From: Candidatus Poribacteria bacterium
Lineage (GTDB): Bacteria > Poribacteria > WGA-4E > WGA-3G
DNA length: 64,000 nucleotides
Direction: 5' to 3'
Assembly: GCA_964291315.2 (NCBI GenBank)
Contig: OZ219753.1
Location: 2,752,001-2,816,000, forward strand
The notes below the pieces were generated by a model. The model was not told the DNA's origin. It made no database searches and worked only from the letters and a program-made list of their open reading frames with translations. Shown piece by piece: positions 5,792 to 16,376 of the stretch (the stretch's first letter is position 1; each line of letters opens with the position of its first letter). A program made the translations under genes and the position numbers.

Positions 5792-5915
5792 GATTTTTCG
5801 CAGCTATGAGATGAGGTGCCTGCTTAGGTTGTATCGGTAAATTGGTGGAGATGTTAGCGTGCCGGCATAATGTGGTGGAGTCTCATAAATCTGTCGGCAT
5901 TTCCAAAGGTCGACT

Positions 5916-5945
5916 TGACAAAAAAGCGGCATTGATAGTATGATG
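5916..5945 (+). promoter_or_regulatory. Putative promoter of defence operon
   Basis: TTGACA-N18-TATGAT upstream of 6030. Confidence 0.5.
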
Positions 5946-6029
5946 AAGTTAGGGTTGACATAACGAATACGACTTTTCACGTAAATCTGATGGCACAATA
6001 CTGTTGCTTGATGCACGCTATAAATAGTT

Positions 6030-7988
6030 ATGATAACATACGAACAATGGAATAAAGCAATAATATCTTACTTTTTTGAAGAGAACGAATCAGGTCAAAT
6101 TGTTTTCTTGCAAACCAATGCTGAAGTTCTTTCTGAAATTGCAGAACTTTTCGATTTCGACATAGCAGATGCCGTCGCGAGTTTTAAAGAATCTGTCAGA
6201 AACAAGGTGGTTGCTTCGAAGACAGTCAACCTCTGGACAGTCAACCCTAATTCTATATTGTCGGAAGACCACTCCGAAAAATATCCACCCCAAGTTGCTT
6301 TTCTTGCTCTCACAGTACTTGCAGCGAGTCTGATGGACGCTGAAGGTTCTGTTGGCTCTCATAATTATTACATTCGTCTCAATGAGTTATTGTTTGAGCA
6401 GTCGGTTAAAGGTGCACCCAAAGGTTTTGATCACGCCCAATTTGAAAATTTCTGGAAGCATCTCCGAAGATGGGCAACTGATCGGCAGGATGTTGAACTC
6501 TATCTAACCCCAGGTTCATCAAGCAGTAGGTACGTCTGGTATCCAAAGTCACAATGCTTGATTAGTAAGCGTGATCGAAGGGCCATTTATCGGTTCTTTC
6601 GCGAGTACGACTTAAATCCCTTTTCAAAAATGTCAGATAACCAACTTGAAAGAAATCTTCGTGCTTGGTTACGAAGACCTGCCGGATCTACCAAGATTGA
6701 ACGTTATTTCTCCAATAGATCGTATAAAAGGTCAATTATCAGTCAGGTTAAATCGATTCTGGAACATTGGGATAATGAAATTCCACCTGACCCGCCTCGC
6801 GATGAAAAACAGACTAGTGCCTCAATCCATGTTGAAATTCGATTCGATCCACCTGACAATAATGCCGAAATTCGCTACTGGTTCCCAAGACGCGGTAGAG
6901 ATGAAACACTTTGCAAAACTAATCTCCTAGAGTTTCAATATCTACAACCGTCACCCTTAGAAAAATGGTTTCGACCAATTATTGATAGCAGCGGTACGTT
7001 TTGGTCCCTACGAGATACTCTGCAATTGCAAACGGATGAGGCCAACTCAATAATTTATACACTAAGTTATTCCGATATCTGGATTTTCAGGAAAGACCCT
7101 GATCGTGACGATAGTTGGCTGTCCCAACGAAACATGCAGAGGTATGAAGATCATTTAATAATATTTCACAAGCGGCTCGTTGATCAGGTTGTAGATTGCT
7201 TAAGACAAACTTGTGAACAAGAGTTTGAAGAATGCAATACTATCCATGTTAATGGGAAAGAAAACGATTGGTTGTACCTGCAAGTTGAGCCCACCAAATT
7301 TGCCTCTTTTCCAGAGAAAGATCTCTGGAAACTTTCTGTCGTTTCGAGTAAGCGGATAGGTCTTATTGGTGGACTATCGGTCACAAACCAAAATGGCCGC
7401 AAGGCTTATGTTGATTTCTGCCTTCCCACTGTTTTCGTTCCTGATCTCGGGCTTCCTGATAAAGAAAATTTGTGGATTGGTGGACGAGCGTTTGCAGTTG
7501 ACGCAGATAGGCGTATTAAGCTAGATGGTGTACTGGATCCGGGATCTCATCTGCTTACCTATGCGGAGCAAACAAGAGAATTACATGTTATTTCTCCGGA
7601 ATGTTCATTGGCACATCACGAACGCACTTTAATTGCCTTTATATCCGAAAACCGGACAACAATGCCTACGTATGCTGTAAAAGAGATTTCAGAAATTTCG
7701 GAGGGATCAAATACCTGGTTTACAGGTGCAAAACTTATAGGAGATATTCCCCCCCTACCTCCAGTTAATGAAGAATTCTTTAGAATTCCTGCACATATTA
7801 TATCGTCTGTTGTGAAAATAGCGATTGATCTTAAACAGAACAAGAATTCAACCCCAGAATGGTTTGATGAGCTAATTGAATATTTGGACCAGAACGTTAT
7901 CCTCCGAGCATTTGTTGAAAAAAAGTTAAATATCTACAACGAGACAGCCTTGTCTTATGCGGAACTCCGGAAACAAATAGGTAGATAG
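6030..7988 (+). CDS. Druantia-like accessory protein 1 (hypothetical, 652 aa)
   Basis: YEQWNKAIISYFF N-terminus of the type seen upstream of DUF1998 helicases; AT-rich; first gene of a tightly packed operon. Confidence 0.6.
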   Translation: MITYEQWNKAIISYFFEENESGQIVFLQTNAEVLSEIAELFDFDIADAVASFKESVRNKVVASKTVNLWTVNPNSILSEDHSEKYPPQVAFLALTVLAASLMDAEGSVGSHNYYIRLNELLFEQSVKGAPKGFDHAQFENFWKHLRRWATDRQDVELYLTPGSSSSRYVWYPKSQCLISKRDRRAIYRFFREYDLNPFSKMSDNQLERNLRAWLRRPAGSTKIERYFSNRSYKRSIISQVKSILEHWDNEIPPDPPRDEKQTSASIHVEIRFDPPDNNAEIRYWFPRRGRDETLCKTNLLEFQYLQPSPLEKWFRPIIDSSGTFWSLRDTLQLQTDEANSIIYTLSYSDIWIFRKDPDRDDSWLSQRNMQRYEDHLIIFHKRLVDQVVDCLRQTCEQEFEECNTIHVNGKENDWLYLQVEPTKFASFPEKDLWKLSVVSSKRIGLIGGLSVTNQNGRKAYVDFCLPTVFVPDLGLPDKENLWIGGRAFAVDADRRIKLDGVLDPGSHLLTYAEQTRELHVISPECSLAHHERTLIAFISENRTTMPTYAVKEISEISEGSNTWFTGAKLIGDIPPLPPVNEEFFRIPAHIISSVVKIAIDLKQNKNSTPEWFDELIEYLDQNVILRAFVEKKLNIYNETALSYAELRKQIGR

Positions 7989-7990
7989 AT

Positions 7991-10036
7991 ATGCAAGGAA
8001 AACCATATCCAGAAGCAAAGCGAAGAATTTTAGTAAATCTCAGTATAGCAAATTTCATCACTTTTTTAGAAGAAGTGACAGATTCTCAAGGAAAACTATT
8101 TATTTCACATCAATTACTCCCAAAAAATGTGAAAGGATTTCGCAAGGGGCGGGCCCCATTCAAACAAACAGTTCCAAAGTTGATTGCAAAATTAAAAAAA
8201 GAACAAGAACTCACAAATAGGGATTCCCCAATTTGGGATTCGTTCGAGAAAGTCTGGATGTTCTGGATTAAATCTTATCCTGAATTAGATAAAACCCTAA
8301 GAGTATTTGACAATAAAAAAGACTTTGATGATGACTACAACTGTATCATACCACCGAATAGCGACTTAGATATTGAGTGCTTTAAATTTTTGTTAAAAGC
8401 TAGTCACAATGCTCCGATTCATCAGGAGATGGTTACTTGCTTTTACGAATATGGTTACTTCAATGAAGATGAACGGATTCAAAATTTAATCAACCAAATA
8501 CCCTCTCGTGAGGAAATTCAACGGAGAGAACAATTAGCAGAGCTGCCATGTAAAGTTGATGAATTGTCCCAGACTATTGATGTTTTTTTTCAAAATATTG
8601 AAAATCTTAAGTCGCGAATTTCCGCCATGGAATCTGCCAATGAACTAGGAACAAAGCTCACTGAACAAATAGCAATAGTGCGTCAGTACTTTGATACTGA
8701 ACTGCAACAACTTGAACAAACAATGATAAACAAACATAGCCAATTTGACAATCGGATTTCTAGTATAGAGTCGAATTCTAAGCAGTCGGTTGGCTTGATA
8801 AGAAGAGGAATCAGTTCACTTAAGGCAGAGCTTTTCGACCTTAGCCAATCGGTTAATTCATTAGCAAATGAACTTACTGAGATAAAATCTGTCAATAGAG
8901 AGGAAATTGATAGATTGATAAATCAGCAAGTGCAAGGTAGAATCAAACAACTAAACTCACAAATGCCACGGGGGATCGAATCTTTTGAAATGAGACTCGC
9001 GGCAGCAGAGAACGCTATTTCTGAAATTAAATCAGAAATGACTGATGGACCCAAAATGTCTATTCAAGCTCTAAAAATTGGAAAAAGGCACAAAACCACA
9101 TTAAAGAAAAAAGCAGAACGTTACTGTGATGAAAATGAGTATCTGGACGATTTCTGCCATTGTCTACAAAGATTTGGCATAATTGATTACGCAGATAAAG
9201 AAATAGCTCCTGCTATTCATATCGCGCTGAAAACGTTTCCTGCAATTGAGATTATTGATGATGCACGAATTATTAAGGTTTGGAGGTTAATGTGCGATCA
9301 CCACTTTCAACTTACAACCATCAATGTAGAAATGGGATGGCTTGGATTACAAGATTGGTTTCCTACTCTTTTTGCCCAACAGTGTTTCGGAGAAAGACTA
9401 GAGCCTGTTGAGCTTGAGGCTTCCATTAAGAAAATGATTGAACTTGGAGATATGCCGTGGGTGATATATTTCCGCTATTGCGATAGGTCATTTCCAGATA
9501 TTTATCTGTCAGGTTTTCTGGACTGGATTGGCGGTTCTTGCCACAAAGGCATTAAAACGTTCCTAATACGTTGTTCCGGAACTAATCGTTGCAAGACGAA
9601 CGAAAATTTTTATGAGCGAATAGCGCGTTTGCCCAAACCCAAGGATCATGCTCCTATTGAGTCAATGAACTTAAAACCTTCTAGGATTCCTCTTACATTA
9701 TCTAAATGGCACTCTTGGTGTCAATCGAATCCTAATATCGCCCCCCAATACAGAGAACCCGATGACCTTCTTGAAAAAATGAGATCGGTCGTTGGAAAAA
9801 GGGGGTGGGAAATTCCAAGAGTGCTTCTTAGAGAAACCCAACATTACCTTCGACTTTCACACAATATTATGGCTCCAAAGCGCGCGCTTGATTGGGCATT
9901 GACCTTACGATTTTTGCCATGGATTGGAAACCGACACCGGTTGATTGAAACAGTACAAGACCTCCTTAATAACGGTAATCAAGAATTACCTCATTTTCAA
10001 GAAGGTCTACAAATAGCACGAGAGGCAGGCGAATGA
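7991..10036 (+). CDS. Druantia-like accessory protein 2: coiled coil plus degenerate McrB-like AAA domain (681 aa)
   Basis: Heptad-rich central region. C-terminal motifs INVEMGWLGLQDWF, PWVIYFRYCDRSFPDIYLSGFL and ALDWALTLRFLPWI parallel McrB-family AAA motifs, with no Walker A/B. Confidence 0.55.
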   Translation: MQGKPYPEAKRRILVNLSIANFITFLEEVTDSQGKLFISHQLLPKNVKGFRKGRAPFKQTVPKLIAKLKKEQELTNRDSPIWDSFEKVWMFWIKSYPELDKTLRVFDNKKDFDDDYNCIIPPNSDLDIECFKFLLKASHNAPIHQEMVTCFYEYGYFNEDERIQNLINQIPSREEIQRREQLAELPCKVDELSQTIDVFFQNIENLKSRISAMESANELGTKLTEQIAIVRQYFDTELQQLEQTMINKHSQFDNRISSIESNSKQSVGLIRRGISSLKAELFDLSQSVNSLANELTEIKSVNREEIDRLINQQVQGRIKQLNSQMPRGIESFEMRLAAAENAISEIKSEMTDGPKMSIQALKIGKRHKTTLKKKAERYCDENEYLDDFCHCLQRFGIIDYADKEIAPAIHIALKTFPAIEIIDDARIIKVWRLMCDHHFQLTTINVEMGWLGLQDWFPTLFAQQCFGERLEPVELEASIKKMIELGDMPWVIYFRYCDRSFPDIYLSGFLDWIGGSCHKGIKTFLIRCSGTNRCKTNENFYERIARLPKPKDHAPIESMNLKPSRIPLTLSKWHSWCQSNPNIAPQYREPDDLLEKMRSVVGKRGWEIPRVLLRETQHYLRLSHNIMAPKRALDWALTLRFLPWIGNRHRLIETVQDLLNNGNQELPHFQEGLQIAREAGE

Positions 10037-10908
10037 ATCGCGTGGAAACGAACGTCTTTGATGGACTGCTTTATTACTTATCGCACACAGGAAAGTTAAG
10101 TTGGGGAAACTTCAAGGAAGCAATTAGGTGCCTGACGAGGGATAATCCAAGCTTTAAACAATCCACCTACCTCATATCTCTTGCCCGCCTGGGGCATCTT
10201 GATTTTGACCCGATGCTTTTATCCTATGTCAATATTGCTCCGGCTGTTCTTGTGGAAACAGCAATGGAAAATCAATATGTCCTTGTAGGTAGTCGAGTAC
10301 CCAGTTTTCTTGCAGACGTTAAGGAATGTGTTTCCAGAAATAGTGGAAAATTCCTATTAATCCCAGAAAAATATGCTCCGACGACTGTTGTCTTAAGTGA
10401 ATTGACAGAAAAAGCGTTGGCATCCCTCGAAAATTTGGGTATTCATATTAGTTTTGAATTTTCGGAAAAACTGTCACGCATATTGCCTCGGCCAAAACTC
10501 ATGGATCTTCAAAGTAAACCACCTTCTGTTCCCAGCCTGATAAAAAAGTTTAATCTTACTACATTGGACTATGAACCAATAAATGATGGGGAGCACATAA
10601 ATGGACTCTATCAAGTTCCACAACATGGACCTGATGTTTACATTTTAAGATTTGGGAATCATGAGCGAAGAGTACCACGTGATTGGGCAGAATGGAATGT
10701 ACTTGCTGGAACTTCTGGATTAATCTCTTACGAAGAAAAATCTCAAATATGGCGTATCACGAACAAATTGCGTGTACCAATAATTGTAGATCGGTGTGCG
10801 ACACTTTGCTCAGGGCATCCACCAAAGGTAAGGGATAATTTCGTCTGTTATTCCAATGTGCCAGTTGACGTAGCAAAACGATTAACAAAATCGCTCTATC
10901 AAAATTAG
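10033..10908 (+). CDS. Druantia-like accessory protein 3 (hypothetical, 291 aa)
   Basis: LLYYLSHTGKLSW, LARLGHLDFD, RCATLCSG.P; ATGA overlap with the previous gene. Confidence 0.6.
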   Translation: MNRVETNVFDGLLYYLSHTGKLSWGNFKEAIRCLTRDNPSFKQSTYLISLARLGHLDFDPMLLSYVNIAPAVLVETAMENQYVLVGSRVPSFLADVKECVSRNSGKFLLIPEKYAPTTVVLSELTEKALASLENLGIHISFEFSEKLSRILPRPKLMDLQSKPPSVPSLIKKFNLTTLDYEPINDGEHINGLYQVPQHGPDVYILRFGNHERRVPRDWAEWNVLAGTSGLISYEEKSQIWRITNKLRVPIIVDRCATLCSGHPPKVRDNFVCYSNVPVDVAKRLTKSLYQN

Positions 10909-10919
10909 GAGACTGTTAT

Positions 10920-13900
10920 ATGTCAGATCCTTTTGAGACTTACAAACGGCTCCGTGAGGGGTACATCCGCTATATCGAGACGGCTATGAGCTTCAACAGT
11001 GAAGAGCTAGAAGAAGAACGTAGAAAGTTACTGAAGAAAAACGGATTGCTTTTTCAAGAACCTCGCTTTGAACCAATTTTCCCTTATCCTTCCTCAGGCA
11101 AAACATTGTCTCAGTTATGCACGGATTTAAAACTACCCGCAGAACTTGGAGAATTTCTTGCAGTAGGAGGTAAAGACGGGCTTGCTCCAATAGACCGCAC
11201 ACTCTATGAACATCAGGCAGAAGCAATCAAAACATCAGTTGTTGATGGTGAGGATGTCGTTGTTACAACTGGCACCGGTTCTGGAAAAACAGAATGTTTT
11301 TTGTTGCCAATCTTCAGCTATCTTATCAAGGAGTCCCGAAACTGGGACGTTTACGGAGAAAGAAAATCACGTCTCTGGTGGCAAAAAACCCAGTCAAAGC
11401 GTATTCCACAGCGGGAGGGCGAAAACCGCCCCGCCGCTATCCGTGCGTTAATTTTGTATCCGCTCAATGCACTTGTAGAAGATCAACTTATGCGACTCCG
11501 GCGTGCTTGTGATAGTCCAGAGGGACATCAATGGCTTAGAAACAACAGAGGCGATAACCGGTTCTACTTCGGGCGGTATACCGGTTTGACACCTGTAACA
11601 GGAGAAGAAAAAAGTGAAAACGCCCGAAAACTCCGGTACCGACTTGAGAAACTACAGAAGCAAGCTGAAAAAGCTAAAGAAACCAAGGAAACACGCTATT
11701 TCTTCCCATCCGCTGATCCTGACGCGTCTGAGATGTGGTCGCGTTGGGATATGCAAGATCATCCACCTGACATTTTAATCACAAACTATTCAATGTTGAA
11801 CATCATGCTCACCCGTGATTTGGAGCAATCAATCTTTGAAAAGACTAGGGAATGGCTAGAAGAACCAGAGAGTGTTTTCCATCTGGTTATTGATGAACTT
11901 CATTCCTACCGCGGCACAGCGGGTTCGGAAGTGGCTTATCTGCTTCGAACCCTATTTAACCGGCTCAACCTTGACCCTAATTCACCTAAATTACGTATCA
12001 TTGCGTCAAGTGCATCCCTTGAAGACGGTGAAGGTCGCAAATACCTTCATCAATTTTTCGCACGACAGAAAGATTTTAAAATCATTGCTTCGCCTCCACA
12101 CCCTGATAAAAATGATGAACTTGAGGAGTGCCTCAAACACGCAAAAGACTTTGAAACATTTAATTCAAATGGCGAGTCCGCTCATTTTGAAGATCTTTCA
12201 AAAGAGTGCGTCAAATCTGCCGTAGCACAACTTTGTAACCGTAACGGTAGGTTGCACGCCTCAACGATTGAAGATATGCATGAGGCTGCAAACAAAGTTG
12301 CTGCGACACCGGTTTCCAAGAGCGCTCTCCGTGGACTAATTCAGTACTTGATTCAACAGAAGGATGAAGCAAATACAGAGAAAGCTCTGTTGCCACTCAG
12401 AGTGCATTATTTCTTTAAAAACTTTGAGGGATTATGGGCATGTAGCAATTCAGACTGCCAATCCCGGAGTTCTAAAAGGTCGATCGGCAAACTGTTTGCT
12501 AATAGACGTGTTTTATGTGATGCGTGTGGTTCACGAGTCTTAGAATTGTTAACTTGCGAAACGTGTGGAGACATTTTCCTCGGAGGATACAAACACAAAA
12601 TATCGGAAGGTGAACAAGGTTGGTACCTCAGTAGTGATTATCAAGATTTATTGGGCCTGCCTGAAAAAGGGGTTAGAGATCGGAACTATGATACTTATGC
12701 CATTTTTTGGAAGAACACACAAGACCCAGCTAAAAAGAAAGCTTGGACAAAAAATGGTATTAAAAGACAGTGGGCTTCTGCTGAACTTTCACATTCGGAT
12801 GGAAGGCTGATTCCGGATACCTCGTCTAAGTCCAATGGTTATTACTACAAAATTAATGATTCAGAGGATTGGTGCTCGGAAATTCCTAAGTTTTGTCCCA
12901 ACTGTGGTGATCTACGAGATTACAAATCGGAAAAAAATCTTATCAACGGAAAAGAACAGGCACCTTCCATAATCCGAACTAGTAGGACTGGTTTGCAAAA
13001 AATAATCCAAATTTTCACCCAAACCTTGCAAACGACTGTCAAAGAGCAATCAGATCGAAAGACAATTATCTTTTCTGATAGTCGGCAGGACGCTGCAAAA
13101 TATGCAGTGGGTATTCAATGGTCTCACTATCAGGATATGATCCGACTCATTGCTATCGAAGCAATGAAAGAACAAGTAAAAGATGATGACTTGGAATTCC
13201 TCCAAATGTTCGAAGCTGGTAAAGACGATTTCCGCACTGCCCGAGAGGTAGCCCGCAATCTACGAGAGGTAATCCGTAATCTAGTTGAGAAATATTCTGA
13301 TCATAAGGAATTATTTTATTCTATTGAGGACGCTTTCGATGATGGAAAGCCTTTAACGCTTGAGCAAAAAGAGGGGCTTTCTGAACTGGGAGGCAACTAT
13401 CCGTTCACGGTTCTTCAGGATGCTTGCTTTGATGCTTTTATCAATCTCGGTATGAATCCTGGAGGCTACGGTAAAGATGTGGAAATTTCTTGGGAAAAGG
13501 GTCGGCGAAATACACTGATTCAGCATAAATGGGAAGAAATATTCAAATGGGATGAAGATCCTATATCAGCACGCCAGCTACGTCTGCTTGAAGAGCATCA
13601 ACGACAGCTTTTGATGAATATCCAAGCGGAATTAAAAAGAATGATAACGGAACAGCTTCTGTTTGCACAAAGAGATATGGGATTAGAAGGGCTTGGACTC
13701 GCTTGGTGTGAACCGGAAACTAATTCGGACAAATGGCGAATTCAGGGAATTGATGTTTCTGAAATGATGTCCGCTGTTACCCGAATCCTTGCTGAACGTA
13801 GACGTACAAGGATTTACCGCCCATATACTGACGAAGAGAAAACGCCAGATTTTCTCCGAGCCTACATCCGGAAATCGGCGACACAAATTAGATACCATGC

Positions 13901-16376
13901 TGATGAACTCATTAGAGCAGTTGAGGAACAACTAGAATTATCAGAGAGTTTTGAAAACGGCTTTGTCCTTGTTGAAAAACTTAATCTTCGCCTTTCACAA
14001 GGAAACACGATCTTCCGATGTTCCAAATGCCGGCGCAAGCATCTCTACGAAGCAAGTAGGATTTGCACAAACACAGTGTGCTTGGGAAAATTGGAGGAAA
14101 TTAATAGAGACGAAGACACTTTTGAAAAATACGGTAACTATTATGCCAATCAGGCGAATTCAGGTATACAACGGTACCGTTTCCATTGTGAAGAATTGAG
14201 TGCACAAACGGATTCAGAGGAACGCCCAAACCGTCAACGGTGGTTCCAGGGGGTAATTCTAGACGATGAGAACCTGCGAACGGATGAAATAGATCTCCTT
14301 AGCGTAACAACAACGATGGAAGCAGGTGTTGATATTGGCGCTCTCTCGCTAGTTTTGTTAGGGAACGTTCCTCCACAACGTTTCAACTATCAACAGCGCG
14401 TCGGACGCGCTGGACGGCGCGGGGAACCAGTAGCATACTCTTTGACGCTCTGCAGTCTTAGAACCCATGATGATCACTACTTCTCCCATACAGGTGAAAT
14501 TACAAATACTCCAACCCCCTCACCTTATTTGGACCTCCGGAGCCGAGACATTATCAAAAGAGTACTAGCCAAGGAAGTTCTGTTCCACGCTCTCCCGAGA
14601 CACTCGATTGAAACTTCAAAGGAGAGAAACGTCCATGGTGCATTTGGAAAAGTCTCCGGTTGGGCCACTAACCGCGAGAAGCTCTCTGAATGGATCAAGA
14701 CTCAACAAGGGCAGATTCAGCAAATCGTGCGTGTGCTCACTGCGCAAACAGAACCAAATATCCAAAATGGGACAGACGCACTGACAAACTGGATTACTAA
14801 CAAACTTGAAACCGCAATTAACGAGTGCGTCGAGAATCATGAGCATGAAGATGATGATTTAAGCCAGGTCCTTGCGGAATCTGGTTTATTACCTATGTTT
14901 GGATTTCCAACAGGTGTGCGTTTATTGTATCATCAACGACCTCTTAGTTCTAATTGGCCTCCAACATCAGGGGTTGTTGACCGCGACATTGAACTAGCGA
15001 TCAGCCAATTTGCGCCGGGCTCGGAAACCATCAAGGATAAAAAAATCCATACATCAATAGGTCTTGTATCCTATAAACGAGAACAAAACCGAATCGTGAC
15101 CGATAAAGGTATAGCGCAGGAAAAAACGATAGGTTTTTGTGAAAACTGCAAAGCCGTTTTTGAGAATGCTGACAAAGATGAAAATACTTGTGAAATTTGT
15201 GGAGATAGCAAATATAAGCCAATTCGAGGGATTGAGCCAAAGGGTTTCCTATCTAATTTTGATAAACCTGCTGATGCCCATGAATCTTTCAATTGGACAC
15301 CGCGCTCAACATATTCTCGCTTACCTTCGGACGTACTTAAAAACAACCTGAAACACGAGCACAATTTCCTATGGGATACAGCAGACAAATTAAAATTGCT
15401 TTCAATTAACACCAACAGCGGCCGGTTGTTTACTCTGCAAAAAAAGCGAAATAGCCAAGCACTTGTATCTCCTGAAGTTTGCAAGGAATTGGATTTAGAA
15501 ATCGATTTCGAAGGGGAACCATCCAAAGCCGCACTTTACGCTGCTAAGACCACAGATGTTTTGCTAATCGAAGTTAACGAAATTCCAATAGGTATTCTCC
15601 AAAATCAAGGGAAAGAATATTGGCGAGCTGCCCTTTATTCTTTCGGGTTCTTGTTCCGTCAATTTGTGGCGAGTCAATTGGATATATCGCCTGACGAGCT
15701 ACGAGTTGAGCTTCGTCCTATGCAGGTAGAAGAGGGAACATATAAACAACAAATCTTCATCGCCGACGCTTTGGCCAATGGAGCCGGATATTGCCGTCAT
15801 ATAGGTGAAGCTGGTGAAAATGAAGAACCATTCCGATTAATGCAATACCTACGCAATATGGTTGATCCCAATCACAATTTCGCAAAAGGGTTCATCGAAC
15901 ATGGAAATGACTGCGATTCATCTTGCTATAACAGAGGTTGCATGCGTGACTACTTCAATATGCCTTACCATCCGTTTCTAGATTGGAGGCTGGGGCTTGA
16001 TGTGACAAAACTGTGTCTTGACAAAAACTATCAGATGGATCTTCAAAAAGACTATTGGATTTCTCTTACAGACATAATTGAAAAAAACTTCATTGAGCTT
16101 TTTCCGAATCTTAAACGTAACGATCGTAACGGAGTGCATGTTTTTGAGGATGAAGCAGAGGGGAGAGCTTTTATCTTACATCATCCTTTGGCTGCAAGCG
16201 GAGATCGTGCAGGGCCAAACATCAAATTCGCTATTGTTGATCTTGAAGAATCTGGATTCAAAGTAGAATATATTAACATTTTCGATGCCATTCGTAGGGT
16301 TAGTGTTGTAATAAATATTATGAGTCCCCGAGGTGGGTCTGGTTTTCTAGCCGCGCCTGTCACGATGTCTAAGTAA
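10920..16376 (+). CDS. Large SF2 DEAD/DEAH-box helicase with DUF1998 (DruE-like), 1818 aa
   Basis: LYEHQ, TGTGSGKT, YPLNALVEDQ, TNYSMLN, DELH, SAS, TTTMEAGVDIG, QQRVGRAGRR; several CxxC zinc motifs; C-terminal DALANGAGY...CDSSCY...C (DUF1998). Confidence 0.9.
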   Translation: MSDPFETYKRLREGYIRYIETAMSFNSEELEEERRKLLKKNGLLFQEPRFEPIFPYPSSGKTLSQLCTDLKLPAELGEFLAVGGKDGLAPIDRTLYEHQAEAIKTSVVDGEDVVVTTGTGSGKTECFLLPIFSYLIKESRNWDVYGERKSRLWWQKTQSKRIPQREGENRPAAIRALILYPLNALVEDQLMRLRRACDSPEGHQWLRNNRGDNRFYFGRYTGLTPVTGEEKSENARKLRYRLEKLQKQAEKAKETKETRYFFPSADPDASEMWSRWDMQDHPPDILITNYSMLNIMLTRDLEQSIFEKTREWLEEPESVFHLVIDELHSYRGTAGSEVAYLLRTLFNRLNLDPNSPKLRIIASSASLEDGEGRKYLHQFFARQKDFKIIASPPHPDKNDELEECLKHAKDFETFNSNGESAHFEDLSKECVKSAVAQLCNRNGRLHASTIEDMHEAANKVAATPVSKSALRGLIQYLIQQKDEANTEKALLPLRVHYFFKNFEGLWACSNSDCQSRSSKRSIGKLFANRRVLCDACGSRVLELLTCETCGDIFLGGYKHKISEGEQGWYLSSDYQDLLGLPEKGVRDRNYDTYAIFWKNTQDPAKKKAWTKNGIKRQWASAELSHSDGRLIPDTSSKSNGYYYKINDSEDWCSEIPKFCPNCGDLRDYKSEKNLINGKEQAPSIIRTSRTGLQKIIQIFTQTLQTTVKEQSDRKTIIFSDSRQDAAKYAVGIQWSHYQDMIRLIAIEAMKEQVKDDDLEFLQMFEAGKDDFRTAREVARNLREVIRNLVEKYSDHKELFYSIEDAFDDGKPLTLEQKEGLSELGGNYPFTVLQDACFDAFINLGMNPGGYGKDVEISWEKGRRNTLIQHKWEEIFKWDEDPISARQLRLLEEHQRQLLMNIQAELKRMITEQLLFAQRDMGLEGLGLAWCEPETNSDKWRIQGIDVSEMMSAVTRILAERRRTRIYRPYTDEEKTPDFLRAYIRKSATQIRYHADELIRAVEEQLELSESFENGFVLVEKLNLRLSQGNTIFRCSKCRRKHLYEASRICTNTVCLGKLEEINRDEDTFEKYGNYYANQANSGIQRYRFHCEELSAQTDSEERPNRQRWFQGVILDDENLRTDEIDLLSVTTTMEAGVDIGALSLVLLGNVPPQRFNYQQRVGRAGRRGEPVAYSLTLCSLRTHDDHYFSHTGEITNTPTPSPYLDLRSRDIIKRVLAKEVLFHALPRHSIETSKERNVHGAFGKVSGWATNREKLSEWIKTQQGQIQQIVRVLTAQTEPNIQNGTDALTNWITNKLETAINECVENHEHEDDDLSQVLAESGLLPMFGFPTGVRLLYHQRPLSSNWPPTSGVVDRDIELAISQFAPGSETIKDKKIHTSIGLVSYKREQNRIVTDKGIAQEKTIGFCENCKAVFENADKDENTCEICGDSKYKPIRGIEPKGFLSNFDKPADAHESFNWTPRSTYSRLPSDVLKNNLKHEHNFLWDTADKLKLLSINTNSGRLFTLQKKRNSQALVSPEVCKELDLEIDFEGEPSKAALYAAKTTDVLLIEVNEIPIGILQNQGKEYWRAALYSFGFLFRQFVASQLDISPDELRVELRPMQVEEGTYKQQIFIADALANGAGYCRHIGEAGENEEPFRLMQYLRNMVDPNHNFAKGFIEHGNDCDSSCYNRGCMRDYFNMPYHPFLDWRLGLDVTKLCLDKNYQMDLQKDYWISLTDIIEKNFIELFPNLKRNDRNGVHVFEDEAEGRAFILHHPLAASGDRAGPNIKFAIVDLEESGFKVEYINIFDAIRRVSVVINIMSPRGGSGFLAAPVTMSK

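What the first reader, a model, noticed from the sequence alone, without database searches (positions are those of the whole stretch)
7991..10036. Coiled coil fused to an apparently dead McrB-like AAA domain inside the helicase operon
Seen: a long heptad-rich segment (about aa 170-350), then motifs in the same order as McrB-family AAA domains. These are ALKTFPAIEI (where a Walker A would follow but is absent), INVEMGWLGLQDWF (cf. V.PDW.D..DLLG), PWVIYFRYCDRSFPDIYLSGFL (cf. LDEMNLA.VEYYFSDFL, Walker B lost), NENFYERI (cf. S.KVLDRA) and ALDWALTLRFLPWI (cf. ALD.QI.QKILP.I). No McrC is nearby. Inference: a pseudo-NTPase scaffold or sensor, reminiscent of coiled-coil McrB (CoCoNuT-type) architectures, repurposed to partner a DruE-like helicase.
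Basis: inference. Interest (0 to 1): 0.7.

Follow-up and report, generated by a model that had tools for sequence, protein, structure and literature searches.

The report
Druantia coiled-coil subunit, dead AAA domain
This gene encodes the coiled-coil accessory subunit of a Druantia anti-phage operon, and its tail end most likely keeps the shape of a McrB-type motor domain while having lost the residues needed to burn GTP or ATP, a kind of protein already reported for other Druantia types.

Summary
The ORF 7991-10036 (+, 681 aa) is real. It is gene 2 of a tight four-gene operon: DruF4, this gene, DruL4, DruE4 (PADLOC). The order is the same in 23 of 23 related loci.

The protein has three parts:
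- An N-terminal domain and a coiled coil, both homologous to type I Druantia DruC (hhalign Prob 98.4%, E 6.4e-15).
- A conserved 307-aa C-terminal domain.

That C-terminal domain has no Walker A in 0 of 144 family members, against 83 of 83 McrB controls.

Every sequence test against McrB was null: Pfam, PDB profiles, and hhalign with shuffle controls.

The ESM Atlas models of two homologues (43% and 49% identical) tell a different story. Their nearest structural neighbours over residues ~345-677 are AAA_5/McrB clusters, with TM up to 0.64. [quoted passage not shown]

This is a diverged lineage, mostly Poribacteria, sitting in a type IV gene set.

The parts
5915..5944 (+). Promoter-like site (TTGACA-18-TATGAT, 11 of 12) in the 238-nt gap before the first gene of the operon
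   Evidence: It is the best-scoring site in the region, but the total count (22) is no higher than in shuffles (23.0 +/- 3.7), so this is weak evidence.
6030..7988 (+). DruF4-like gene (652 aa), first gene of the operon
   Evidence: PADLOC DruF4, E 4.3e-43. No Pfam family at E<=1. Found upstream of X in 23 of 23 loci.
7991..8485 (+). X N-terminal domain (aa 1-165), DruC-type
   Evidence: Conserved across the family. hhalign against Ralstonia DruC gives Prob 92.8% and against the DruC family 98.4%. PADLOC DruC1 E 1.2e-23 over aa 8-352.
8486..9115 (+). X coiled-coil region (aa ~166-375), variable in sequence and length
   Evidence: Hits to coiled-coil families only. Heptad power reached by 17 of 2000 shuffles. 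Most alignment gaps fall here (947 columns for ~680-aa proteins).
9116..10036 (+). X C-terminal domain (aa 376-681, plus stop codon): probable P-loop-less AAA+ (AAA_5/McrB-like) domain
   Evidence: Mean column identity 63% across 23 loci. Only 20 representatives match it among 1.84 billion. 0 of 144 members have a Walker A. Atlas structural neighbours of homologues P0104 and P0051 are AAA_5/McrB clusters. No sequence-level AAA signal.
10033..10908 (+). DruL4-like gene (291 aa); its start overlaps the stop of X by 4 nt (ATGA)
   Evidence: PADLOC DruL4, E 5.3e-20. Follows X in 23 of 23 loci and in a Planctomycetaceae contig. Not McrC-like by profile.
10920..16376 (+). DruE4 helicase (1818 aa, YprA family, with MZB/DUF1998)
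   Evidence: PADLOC DruE4, E = 0, 1682 bits. Pfam DEAD 6.9e-17, Helicase_C 3.4e-9, MZB 4.8e-5.

Best explanation
The gene, called X here, encodes the DruC-like accessory subunit of a four-gene Druantia defence operon: DruF4, X, DruL4, DruE4.

X has three modules:
- a DruC-type N-terminal domain (aa 1-165);
- a segmented coiled coil of about 200 aa;
- a 307-aa C-terminal domain that most likely keeps the AAA+ (AAA_5, McrB/CnuB-like) fold but has lost the P-loop and the Walker B acidic pair, so it cannot hydrolyse NTP in the canonical way.

Shown:
- operon membership and conservation;
- homology of the N-domain and coiled coil to DruC;
- absence of the NTPase motifs;
- AAA_5/McrB structural neighbours for the Atlas models of two homologues.

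Inferred: X is a non-catalytic assembly or adaptor subunit.
- The coiled coil dimerises X or reaches DruE. DruE4 carries a short charged helical insert at aa ~229-262 in RecA1, the place where Bell et al. predict a coiled coil in type II DruE.
- The dead AAA module is a docking surface for the translationally coupled DruL4 and/or for DruE.
- The only motor activity in the system comes from the DruE helicase.
- X would then couple recognition of a phage cue to DruE loading or licensing, rather than doing mechanical work itself.
For: Operon:
- PADLOC hits: DruF4 4.3e-43, DruC1 1.2e-23 (N half), DruL4 5.3e-20, DruE4 E = 0.
- Gaps and overlaps between genes are 2, -4 and 11 nt.
- The same order is seen in 23 of 23 loci and in a Planctomycetaceae contig.

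DruC homology: hhalign of the X family against the DruC family gives Prob 98.4%, E 6.4e-15, X 7-400 aligned with DruC 7-371. The DruC reference was verified as type I (PDLC00006 854 bits, flanked by DruB1, DruD1 and an annotated DruA).

Dead NTPase: Walker A in 0 of 144 members against 83 of 83 McrB controls. hhhhDE in 12 of 144, none at the candidate strand, against 82 of 83 controls.

Fold:
- Atlas model of P0104 (43% identical to X): 7 of 10 listed neighbour rows are clusters carrying AAA_5 or AAA. Two of these are annotated as McrB or as the GTPase subunit of a restriction endonuclease. The alignments end at residue ~670-677 and mostly start at ~340-355.
- Atlas model of P0051 (49% identical): 9 of 10 rows are AAA-related by Pfam family or by name, with best TM-by-row 0.64 over 337 residues.
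- The domain is 307 aa, against 298 aa for the E. coli McrB-S GTPase module.

Against: - No sequence method links the C-domain to any AAA family. Pfam AAA_5 matches 0 of 23 members at E<=10, and one member hits AAA_lid_14 at E 0.2.
- A PDB profile search found only one hit at E<=10, a histidine kinase at E 1.4.
- hhalign against the McrB profile gives Prob <=0.4%.
- Scores for X-C against McrB, DruC-C against McrB, and even X-C against DruC-C do not exceed 40 column shuffles. The only exception is a marginal global score reached by 2 of 40.
- The PADLOC DruC1 model covers only X's N-terminal half.
- The Atlas models are of homologues, not of X. Their mean pLDDT is 0.57 and 0.49, and TM by query is 0.39-0.45. 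The tool itself calls its results leads.
- I saw only the sentence in the preprint. The data are in figures and supplements that I could not see, and it names types I and II, not this gene set.
- In 4 of 27 genomes the frame holds only the C-domain (loci L019 and L021), so the N-domain and coiled coil are not always needed.
- No binding evidence of any kind was obtained.
Confidence: 0.68

Rival explanations
1. The C-terminal domain is not an AAA+ domain. It is a lineage-specific alpha/beta domain of another or a new fold, and the Atlas neighbours are an artefact of low-confidence language-model structures of a long helical protein.
For: - Every sequence and profile test is null.
- Atlas pLDDT is 0.49-0.57, and TM by query is below 0.5 in all 20 rows.
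- X's C-domain shows no detectable profile similarity even to DruC's C-domain.
- The family is very narrow: 20 representatives in 1.84 billion.
Against: - Two different homologues independently give AAA_5/AAA clusters as nearly all named neighbours. The alignment is confined to the C-terminal ~320 residues, and TM-by-row reaches 0.55-0.64 for short AAA_5 proteins.
- No competing fold family appears among the rows.
- The domain size matches McrB-S.
- The preprint statement about DruC-class proteins agrees.
Confidence: 0.2
2. The domain is an AAA+ fold, but it derives from another AAA_5 lineage (MoxR-, dynein- or NorQ-like) rather than from McrB/CnuB. The resemblance to CoCoNuT architecture would then be convergent.
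For: - Most Atlas neighbour clusters are generic AAA_5/AAA or 'dynein-related' clusters. McrB-labelled clusters are 2 of 10 rows in each call.
- There is no McrC/CnuC partner.
- The GTPase signature motif could not be aligned.
Against: - The arrangement of a variable N-terminal domain, a coiled coil and an AAA_5 module is that of CnuB (PMC11090510, passages).
- A distant relative, P0139, carries a different N-terminal module, as McrB-family proteins typically do (established knowledge).
- Bell et al. assign the Druantia proteins to CnuB.
Confidence: 0.1
3. X is not inert. It still binds a nucleotide or a nucleotide-like signal through a non-canonical pocket and acts as a ligand-gated sensor switch.
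For: The C-domain keeps many invariant polar residues across relatives only ~20% identical: H410, K414, E420, D424, D498, S500, R527, N532, D634 and R640. That is more conservation than a passive scaffold strictly needs.
Against: There is no P-loop in 0 of 144 members and no Walker B.
Confidence: 0.12

Closest known systems
DruC of type I Druantia (PADLOC PDLC00006; example on Ralstonia solanacearum plasmid pUW163a, locus L146)
   Same: - Homologous N-terminal domain and coiled coil, running into the start of the C-domain (hhalign Prob 98.4%, E 6.4e-15).
- Similar size: 623 against 681 aa.
- The gene sits two places upstream of DruE with one small gene between.
- No Walker A in either protein.
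   Different: - The C-terminal ~300 aa show no detectable profile similarity.
- The partners are DruF4, DruL4 and DruE4 rather than DruA, DruB, DruD and DruE1.
- DruL4 against DruD1 and DruF4 against DruB1 show no similarity.
- DruE here scores 1682 bits on DruE4 against 670 on DruE1.
Inactivated CnuB homologues of 'Type IV CoCoNuT' (Druantia types I and II; Bell et al. 2025, PMC12458937)
   Same: A coiled-coil protein with a catalytically dead McrB-like module, encoded beside a YprA-family DruE helicase (passages).
   Different: - The preprint names types I and II. This operon has the type IV gene set (DruF4, DruL4, DruE4), with no methyltransferase next to it.
- I could not see the preprint's figures or supplements, so this variant may be covered there.
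PADLOC Druantia type IV (DruF, DruL, DruE; Payne et al. 2021, PMC8565338)
   Same: DruF4, DruL4 and DruE4 are all present and in order.
   Different: - Type IV is defined as lacking DruG and DruM and has no coiled-coil gene (passage).
- Reference-like loci go straight from DruF to DruL: the Nostoc plasmid L147 and Poribacteria L114.
- Here X lies between DruF and DruL.
McrB / CnuB AAA+ GTPases (Pfam AAA_5)
   Same: - Probable fold of the C-domain.
- Overall layout of CnuB: N-terminal module, then coiled coil, then AAA_5.
- Module size is about 300 aa.
   Different: - No Walker A or Walker B.
- No profile similarity.
- No McrC/CnuC partner.
- The partner motor is a helicase.

Membership tests
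McrB/CnuB-type AAA+ GTPase (Pfam AAA_5) | AAA+ alpha/beta core plus helical lid fold | tested here: inconclusive
   The result is positive but indirect. Atlas models of two homologues (43% and 49% identical to X) have AAA_5/AAA/McrB clusters as 7 of 10 and 9 of 10 listed neighbours, with TM-by-row up to 0.64. Model pLDDT is 0.57 and 0.49.
McrB/CnuB-type AAA+ GTPase (Pfam AAA_5) | Significant sequence or profile match to AAA_5/McrB | tested here: not met
   Pfam AAA_5 matches 0 of 23 members at E<=10. hhalign Prob is 0.09-0.4%. Scores are not above column shuffles. No AAA hit in the PDB at E<=10.
McrB/CnuB-type AAA+ GTPase (Pfam AAA_5) | Walker A GxxxxGK[ST] and Walker B hhhhDE | tested here: not met
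   Walker A in 0 of 144 family proteins, against 83 of 83 McrB controls. hhhhDE in 12 of 144, none at the candidate strand, against 82 of 83 controls.
McrB/CnuB-type AAA+ GTPase (Pfam AAA_5) | GTPase signature NxxD (McrB) or NxD (CnuB) | tested here: inconclusive
   No reliable alignment exists on which to locate the position. N532 is invariant, but its equivalence to the signature Asn rests on eye alone.
McrB/CnuB-type AAA+ GTPase (Pfam AAA_5) | Adjacent McrC/CnuC (DUF2357) partner | tested here: not met
   DruF4 and DruL4 have no Pfam family at E<=1. DruL4 profile against McrC profile gives Prob 0.6%.
CnuB (CoCoNuT) | Extended coiled coil N-terminal to the AAA module | tested here: met
   Coiled-coil-only hits at aa ~150-376. 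Heptad periodicity reached by 17 of 2000 shuffles.
DruC (Druantia type I) | Homology to the DruC family profile | tested here: met
   PADLOC DruC1 E 1.2e-23 over aa 8-352. hhalign A1 against A7 gives Prob 98.4%, E 6.4e-15, over X 7-400.
DruC (Druantia type I) | Match over the whole length, including the C-terminal domain | tested here: not met
   The PADLOC match stops at profile position 332 of 626. C-domain against C-domain gives Prob 0.06-0.18%, not above shuffles.
DruC (Druantia type I) | Operon with DruA, DruB, DruD and DruE1 | tested here: not met
   The neighbours are DruF4, DruL4 and DruE4. There is no similarity to DruB1 or DruD1.
Druantia type IV (PADLOC) | DruF4 + DruL4 + DruE4 co-located | tested here: met
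   E-values 4.3e-43, 5.3e-20 and 0. X is an extra gene that is not part of the PADLOC definition.

The most novel reading that the evidence does not exclude
The X family defines a separate Druantia subtype with the gene order DruF, X, DruL, DruE, so far seen in Poribacteria and a Planctomycetaceae MAG.

In this subtype a DruC-derived, P-loop-less AAA module has diverged beyond all sequence recognition. It forms an obligate 'dead motor plus partner' pair with DruL, analogous to McrB-McrC, and that pair licenses the DruE helicase.

The N-terminal domain and coiled coil would be an exchangeable sensor arm. It is absent in 4 of 27 genomes and replaced by another module in P0139.
Probability: 0.25. 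Interest if true: 0.55.

Novelty: new variant of a known kind. Interest (0 to 1): 0.4.

Why it matters
Types I, II and IV of Druantia have no known mechanism, and their DruE is predicted to lack an active nuclease (PMC12458937, passage).

This locus shows that a DruC-class pseudo-NTPase can be plugged into the type IV gene set, between DruF and DruL. It therefore links types I, II and IV through a shared module.

The same phylum also offers natural dissection material:
- X-less operons;
- C-domain-only forms of X;
- a copy of X disrupted by insertion sequences.

The operon is compact, at 10.3 kb and four genes, and could be used to test what a dead McrB-like module does for a helicase-based defence. 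The general idea is already in print, however, so the gain is incremental.

Tried and rejected
Structure tools:
- Complex prediction (X C-domain with DruL4) was unavailable and nothing was folded.

Sequence links to AAA/McrB, all null:
- Pfam on X and on 23 C-domains.
- NCBIfam.
- PDB profile searches.
- hhalign against E. coli McrB-S and against an 83-sequence McrB profile, in local, low-mact and global modes.
- The four distant relatives alone against McrB.
- A McrB HMM run with --max against the C-domains.
- Column-shuffle and reversal controls.

By eye I saw tempting relics: 'DINRS' in P0138/P0139 and 'ANRS' in DruC against McrB 'EINRA', and 'GVT[KR]G' in DruC against 'GVGKT'. They are not above chance, so I do not count them as evidence.

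Other searches:
- The exhaustive C-domain profile search found only the family itself plus four distant relatives, then noise.
- The word-index search with the N-domain profile ('longer') found no DruC.
- DruC1 was not found in 401 sampled genomes of one class nor in E. coli K-12. It was finally reached through a weak tblastn hit on a plasmid.
- A metagenome scan for P0136 found nothing.
- A PF07728 scan of 61 relatives returned mostly frames of ~320-420 and ~860-920 aa; I did not characterise them and they did not serve the McrB comparison.

Comparisons that gave nothing:
- DruL4 against McrC.
- DruL4 against DruD1.
- DruF4 against DruB1.
- X against the 1233-aa protein and against the long DruL of the X-less variant.
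- The 655-aa gene after DruE on plasmid L148 is UvrD/GajB-like, not DruG, and is unrelated to X. I therefore never obtained a DruG to compare.

Also:
- The literature search for DruA-DruG was swamped because 'DruG' matched 'drug'.
- Sequencing runs: no RNA holder was listed.
- Supplements of PMC12458937 and PMC11090510 were closed. They may hold the domain evidence for the 'inactivated CnuB' claim and may already list this variant.
Full report
WHAT IS THERE. The window holds a single ATG ORF at 7991-10036 on the + strand, 681 aa. I call it X. It is the second gene of a tight co-directional block:
- 6030-7988, 652 aa;
- X;
- 10033-10908, 291 aa, whose start overlaps the stop of X by 4 nt;
- 10920-16376, 1818 aa.

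PADLOC names the other three genes DruF4 (E 4.3e-43), DruL4 (5.3e-20) and DruE4 (E = 0, 1682 bits). X matches the type I model DruC1 at 1.2e-23, but only over aa 8-352 against profile positions 8-332 of 626.

Pfam sees DEAD, Helicase_C and MZB in DruE. It sees nothing in DruF4 or DruL4. In X it sees only sub-threshold coiled-coil families.

The flanking genes are ordinary: an ABC transporter set, SIMPL, a GFO/IDH/MocA oxidoreductase, FGE-sulfatase, a PfkB kinase and a TPR protein. GC content drops to 0.36-0.42 across the first half of the block (~6-11 kb) and is 0.42-0.47 over DruE; the flanks are 0.43-0.48 upstream and ~0.45 then 0.49-0.54 downstream. This is therefore an isolated four-gene Druantia island with no methyltransferase beside it.

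HOW WIDESPREAD.
- A word-index search found 156 full-length homologues at E<=0.001. The 120 listed are 42-69% identical.
- In one genome per species, 23 loci encode a relative. 22 are titled Candidatus Poribacteria and one 'uncultured bacterium'.
- All 23 have DruF4, X, DruL4 and DruE4 in the same order and orientation.
- Within the window's phylum, the C-domain of X is present in 27 of 176 genomes and 8 of 31 genera. DruL4 is present in 36 of 176. This patchiness is typical of defence genes.
- An exhaustive profile search with the C-domain over 1.84 billion representatives found only 20 proteins at E<=0.001. Among them are four distant relatives (P0136-P0139, ~20% identical) with no Pfam or PADLOC name.
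- One of these lies on a Planctomycetaceae contig. There it is followed by a DruL4 homologue (hhalign Prob 98.7%) and by DruE (51% identity over 355 aa). The association with DruL and DruE therefore holds outside Poribacteria.

ANATOMY. The 56-sequence alignment shows two conserved blocks, aa 1-165 and aa ~378-681, around a variable, gap-rich middle.

The middle is coiled-coil-like:
- All NCBIfam and PDB-profile hits, and 21 of 23 Pfam hits, fall in aa ~150-376 and are to coiled-coil proteins.
- Its heptad periodicity is reached by 17 of 2000 shuffles.
- Several Gly/Pro residues suggest it is segmented.

The N-domain and coiled coil are homologous to DruC. To show this I located a bona fide type I locus on a Ralstonia plasmid: an annotated DruA, then DruB1, then DruC1 at 854 bits, then DruD1, then DruE. 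I collected 146 DruC relatives at E<=0.001, of which 120 were listed. I then compared profiles. The X family against the DruC family gives Prob 98.4%, E 6.4e-15, with X 7-400 aligned to DruC 7-371.

IS THE C-DOMAIN A DEAD McrB-LIKE AAA DOMAIN? Two kinds of test disagree.

Sequence tests are uniformly negative:
- Pfam AAA_5 matches 0 of 23 C-domains at E<=10. One member hits AAA_lid_14 at E 0.2.
- The PDB profile search has a single hit at E<=10, a histidine kinase at E 1.4.
- hhalign against E. coli McrB-S, and against a profile of 83 McrB GTPase modules that I collected, gives Prob 0.09-0.4%.
- With 40 column-shuffled controls per comparison, none of three pairs stands out: X-C against McrB, DruC-C against McrB, and X-C against DruC-C. 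The local scores are reached by 36, 10 and 36 of 40 shuffles. The best case is one global score reached by 2 of 40.

Different runs also put the lost Walker A in different places.

The NTPase motifs are certainly absent. Walker A occurs in 0 of 144 family proteins against 83 of 83 McrB controls. hhhhDE occurs in 12 of 144, never at the candidate strand, against 82 of 83 controls.

Structure-based leads are positive. I could not fold X. However, the ESM Atlas holds models of two homologues.
- For P0104 (43% identical to X), 7 of the 10 neighbour rows are clusters carrying AAA_5 or AAA. One is annotated 'GTPase subunit of restriction endonuclease' and one is a MrcB_N + AAA_5 cluster. The alignments end at ~670-677 and mostly begin at ~340-355.
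- For P0051 (49% identical), 9 of 10 rows are AAA-related by Pfam family or by name. The best TM-by-row is 0.64 over 337 residues, and two rows are McrB clusters.
- No other fold family competes in either list.
- The models are of modest confidence (pLDDT 0.57 and 0.49). The tool calls its output leads.

Independently, Bell et al. [quoted passage not shown] X is a DruC homologue with a C-domain of the same size in the same position. I therefore put about 0.75 on an AAA+ fold and about 0.65 on McrB/CnuB ancestry.

WHERE IT FITS. PADLOC defines type IV as DruE + DruF + DruL without DruG or DruM (PMC8565338, passage). Two reference-like loci go directly from DruF to DruL:
- a Nostoc plasmid with dcm, DruF4, DruL4 and DruE;
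- a Poribacteria variant with a longer DruL and extra upstream genes.

PADLOC's long DruF2 models span both DruF4 and DruL4, so in type II the two are fused. Here a DruC-like gene sits exactly between them. The locus is thus a mosaic: a type I-class coiled-coil pseudo-NTPase inside a type IV gene set. DruL4 shows no similarity to McrC or to DruD1, and DruF4 shows none to DruB1.

HOW IT PROBABLY WORKS (inference). X cannot be a canonical NTPase. The only recognisable motor in the operon is DruE.

[quoted passage not shown] In types I/II its C-terminal nuclease is predicted to be inactive (PMC12458937, passage).

I propose that X is an assembly or adaptor subunit:
- The coiled coil dimerises X or contacts DruE. 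DruE4 has a charged helical insert at aa ~229-262 of RecA1, the site where Bell et al. predict a coiled coil in type II.
- The dead AAA module docks the translationally coupled DruL4.
- The N-domain is an exchangeable input module. It is missing in 4 of 27 genomes (L019 and L021). In P0139 it is replaced by an unrelated N-terminus.

NOVELTY AND LIMITS. The concept is already in print for types I and II. The new points are:
- the placement of this gene in a type IV gene set;
- the extreme divergence of the C-domain;
- the lineage, Poribacteria plus a Planctomycetaceae MAG;
- the natural truncated, X-less and IS-disrupted forms.

The main weakness of this report is that the fold claim rests on third-party models of homologues and on one sentence of a preprint whose data I could not inspect.

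Noticed in passing
L019:10001-11119, L021:10001-11089; also G137, G085, G118, G119: Natural C-domain-only forms of X. The frame is 363-401 aa and starts right after DruF4, lacking the N-domain and most of the coiled coil. The operon is otherwise intact.
   Followed up: partly
L022:10001-14095 (= G172): X is interrupted by two insertion sequences, each with a reverse-strand transposase: IS1595 family (E 4.2e-36) and DDE_3 (E 1.4e-28). DruF4, DruL4 and DruE4 remain intact there.
   Followed up: partly
L114:403-15313 and L115 (same phylum, genomes without X): A second DruE4-type operon lacks X. Its genes are DruF (573 aa), DruL (459 aa, with a 158-aa N-terminal extension) and DruE (1910 aa). Upstream lie a GNAT protein with a weak DpdA-model hit, a 286-aa unknown, and a 1233-aa protein with a weak AAA_16 hit. 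It is unrelated to X by hhalign.
   Followed up: partly
window 6030-7988 and 10033-10908; L148:5586-8624: The PADLOC DruF2 models of 1011-1030 positions match DruF4 at their N-terminus and DruL4 at their C-terminus. A 1013-aa fused DruF2 exists on an Alisedimentitalea plasmid. DruF and DruL are therefore split halves of type II DruF, and here X is inserted between the halves.
   Followed up: partly
P0139 residues 1-~230: This distant relative of X has the same coiled coil plus C-domain but an N-terminal region with no similarity to the X/DruC N-domain (hhalign Prob 0.5%). This suggests swapping of the N-terminal module.
   Followed up: partly
window 10920-16376, DruE4 aa ~229-262: A short, strongly charged helical stretch (EKSENARKLRYRLEKLQKQAEKAKETKETRY) lies between the Walker A and DExH motifs of RecA1. 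It is possibly the coiled-coil insert that Bell et al. describe for type II DruE. This was read from the sequence only.
   Followed up: no
window 6001-16376 against its flanks: The four-gene block has lower GC in its first half (0.36-0.42 over ~6-11 kb; 0.42-0.47 over DruE) than the flanks (0.43-0.54). It is flanked by housekeeping-type genes, with no integrase or tRNA seen within about 6 kb on either side. tRNAs were not scanned.
   Followed up: no
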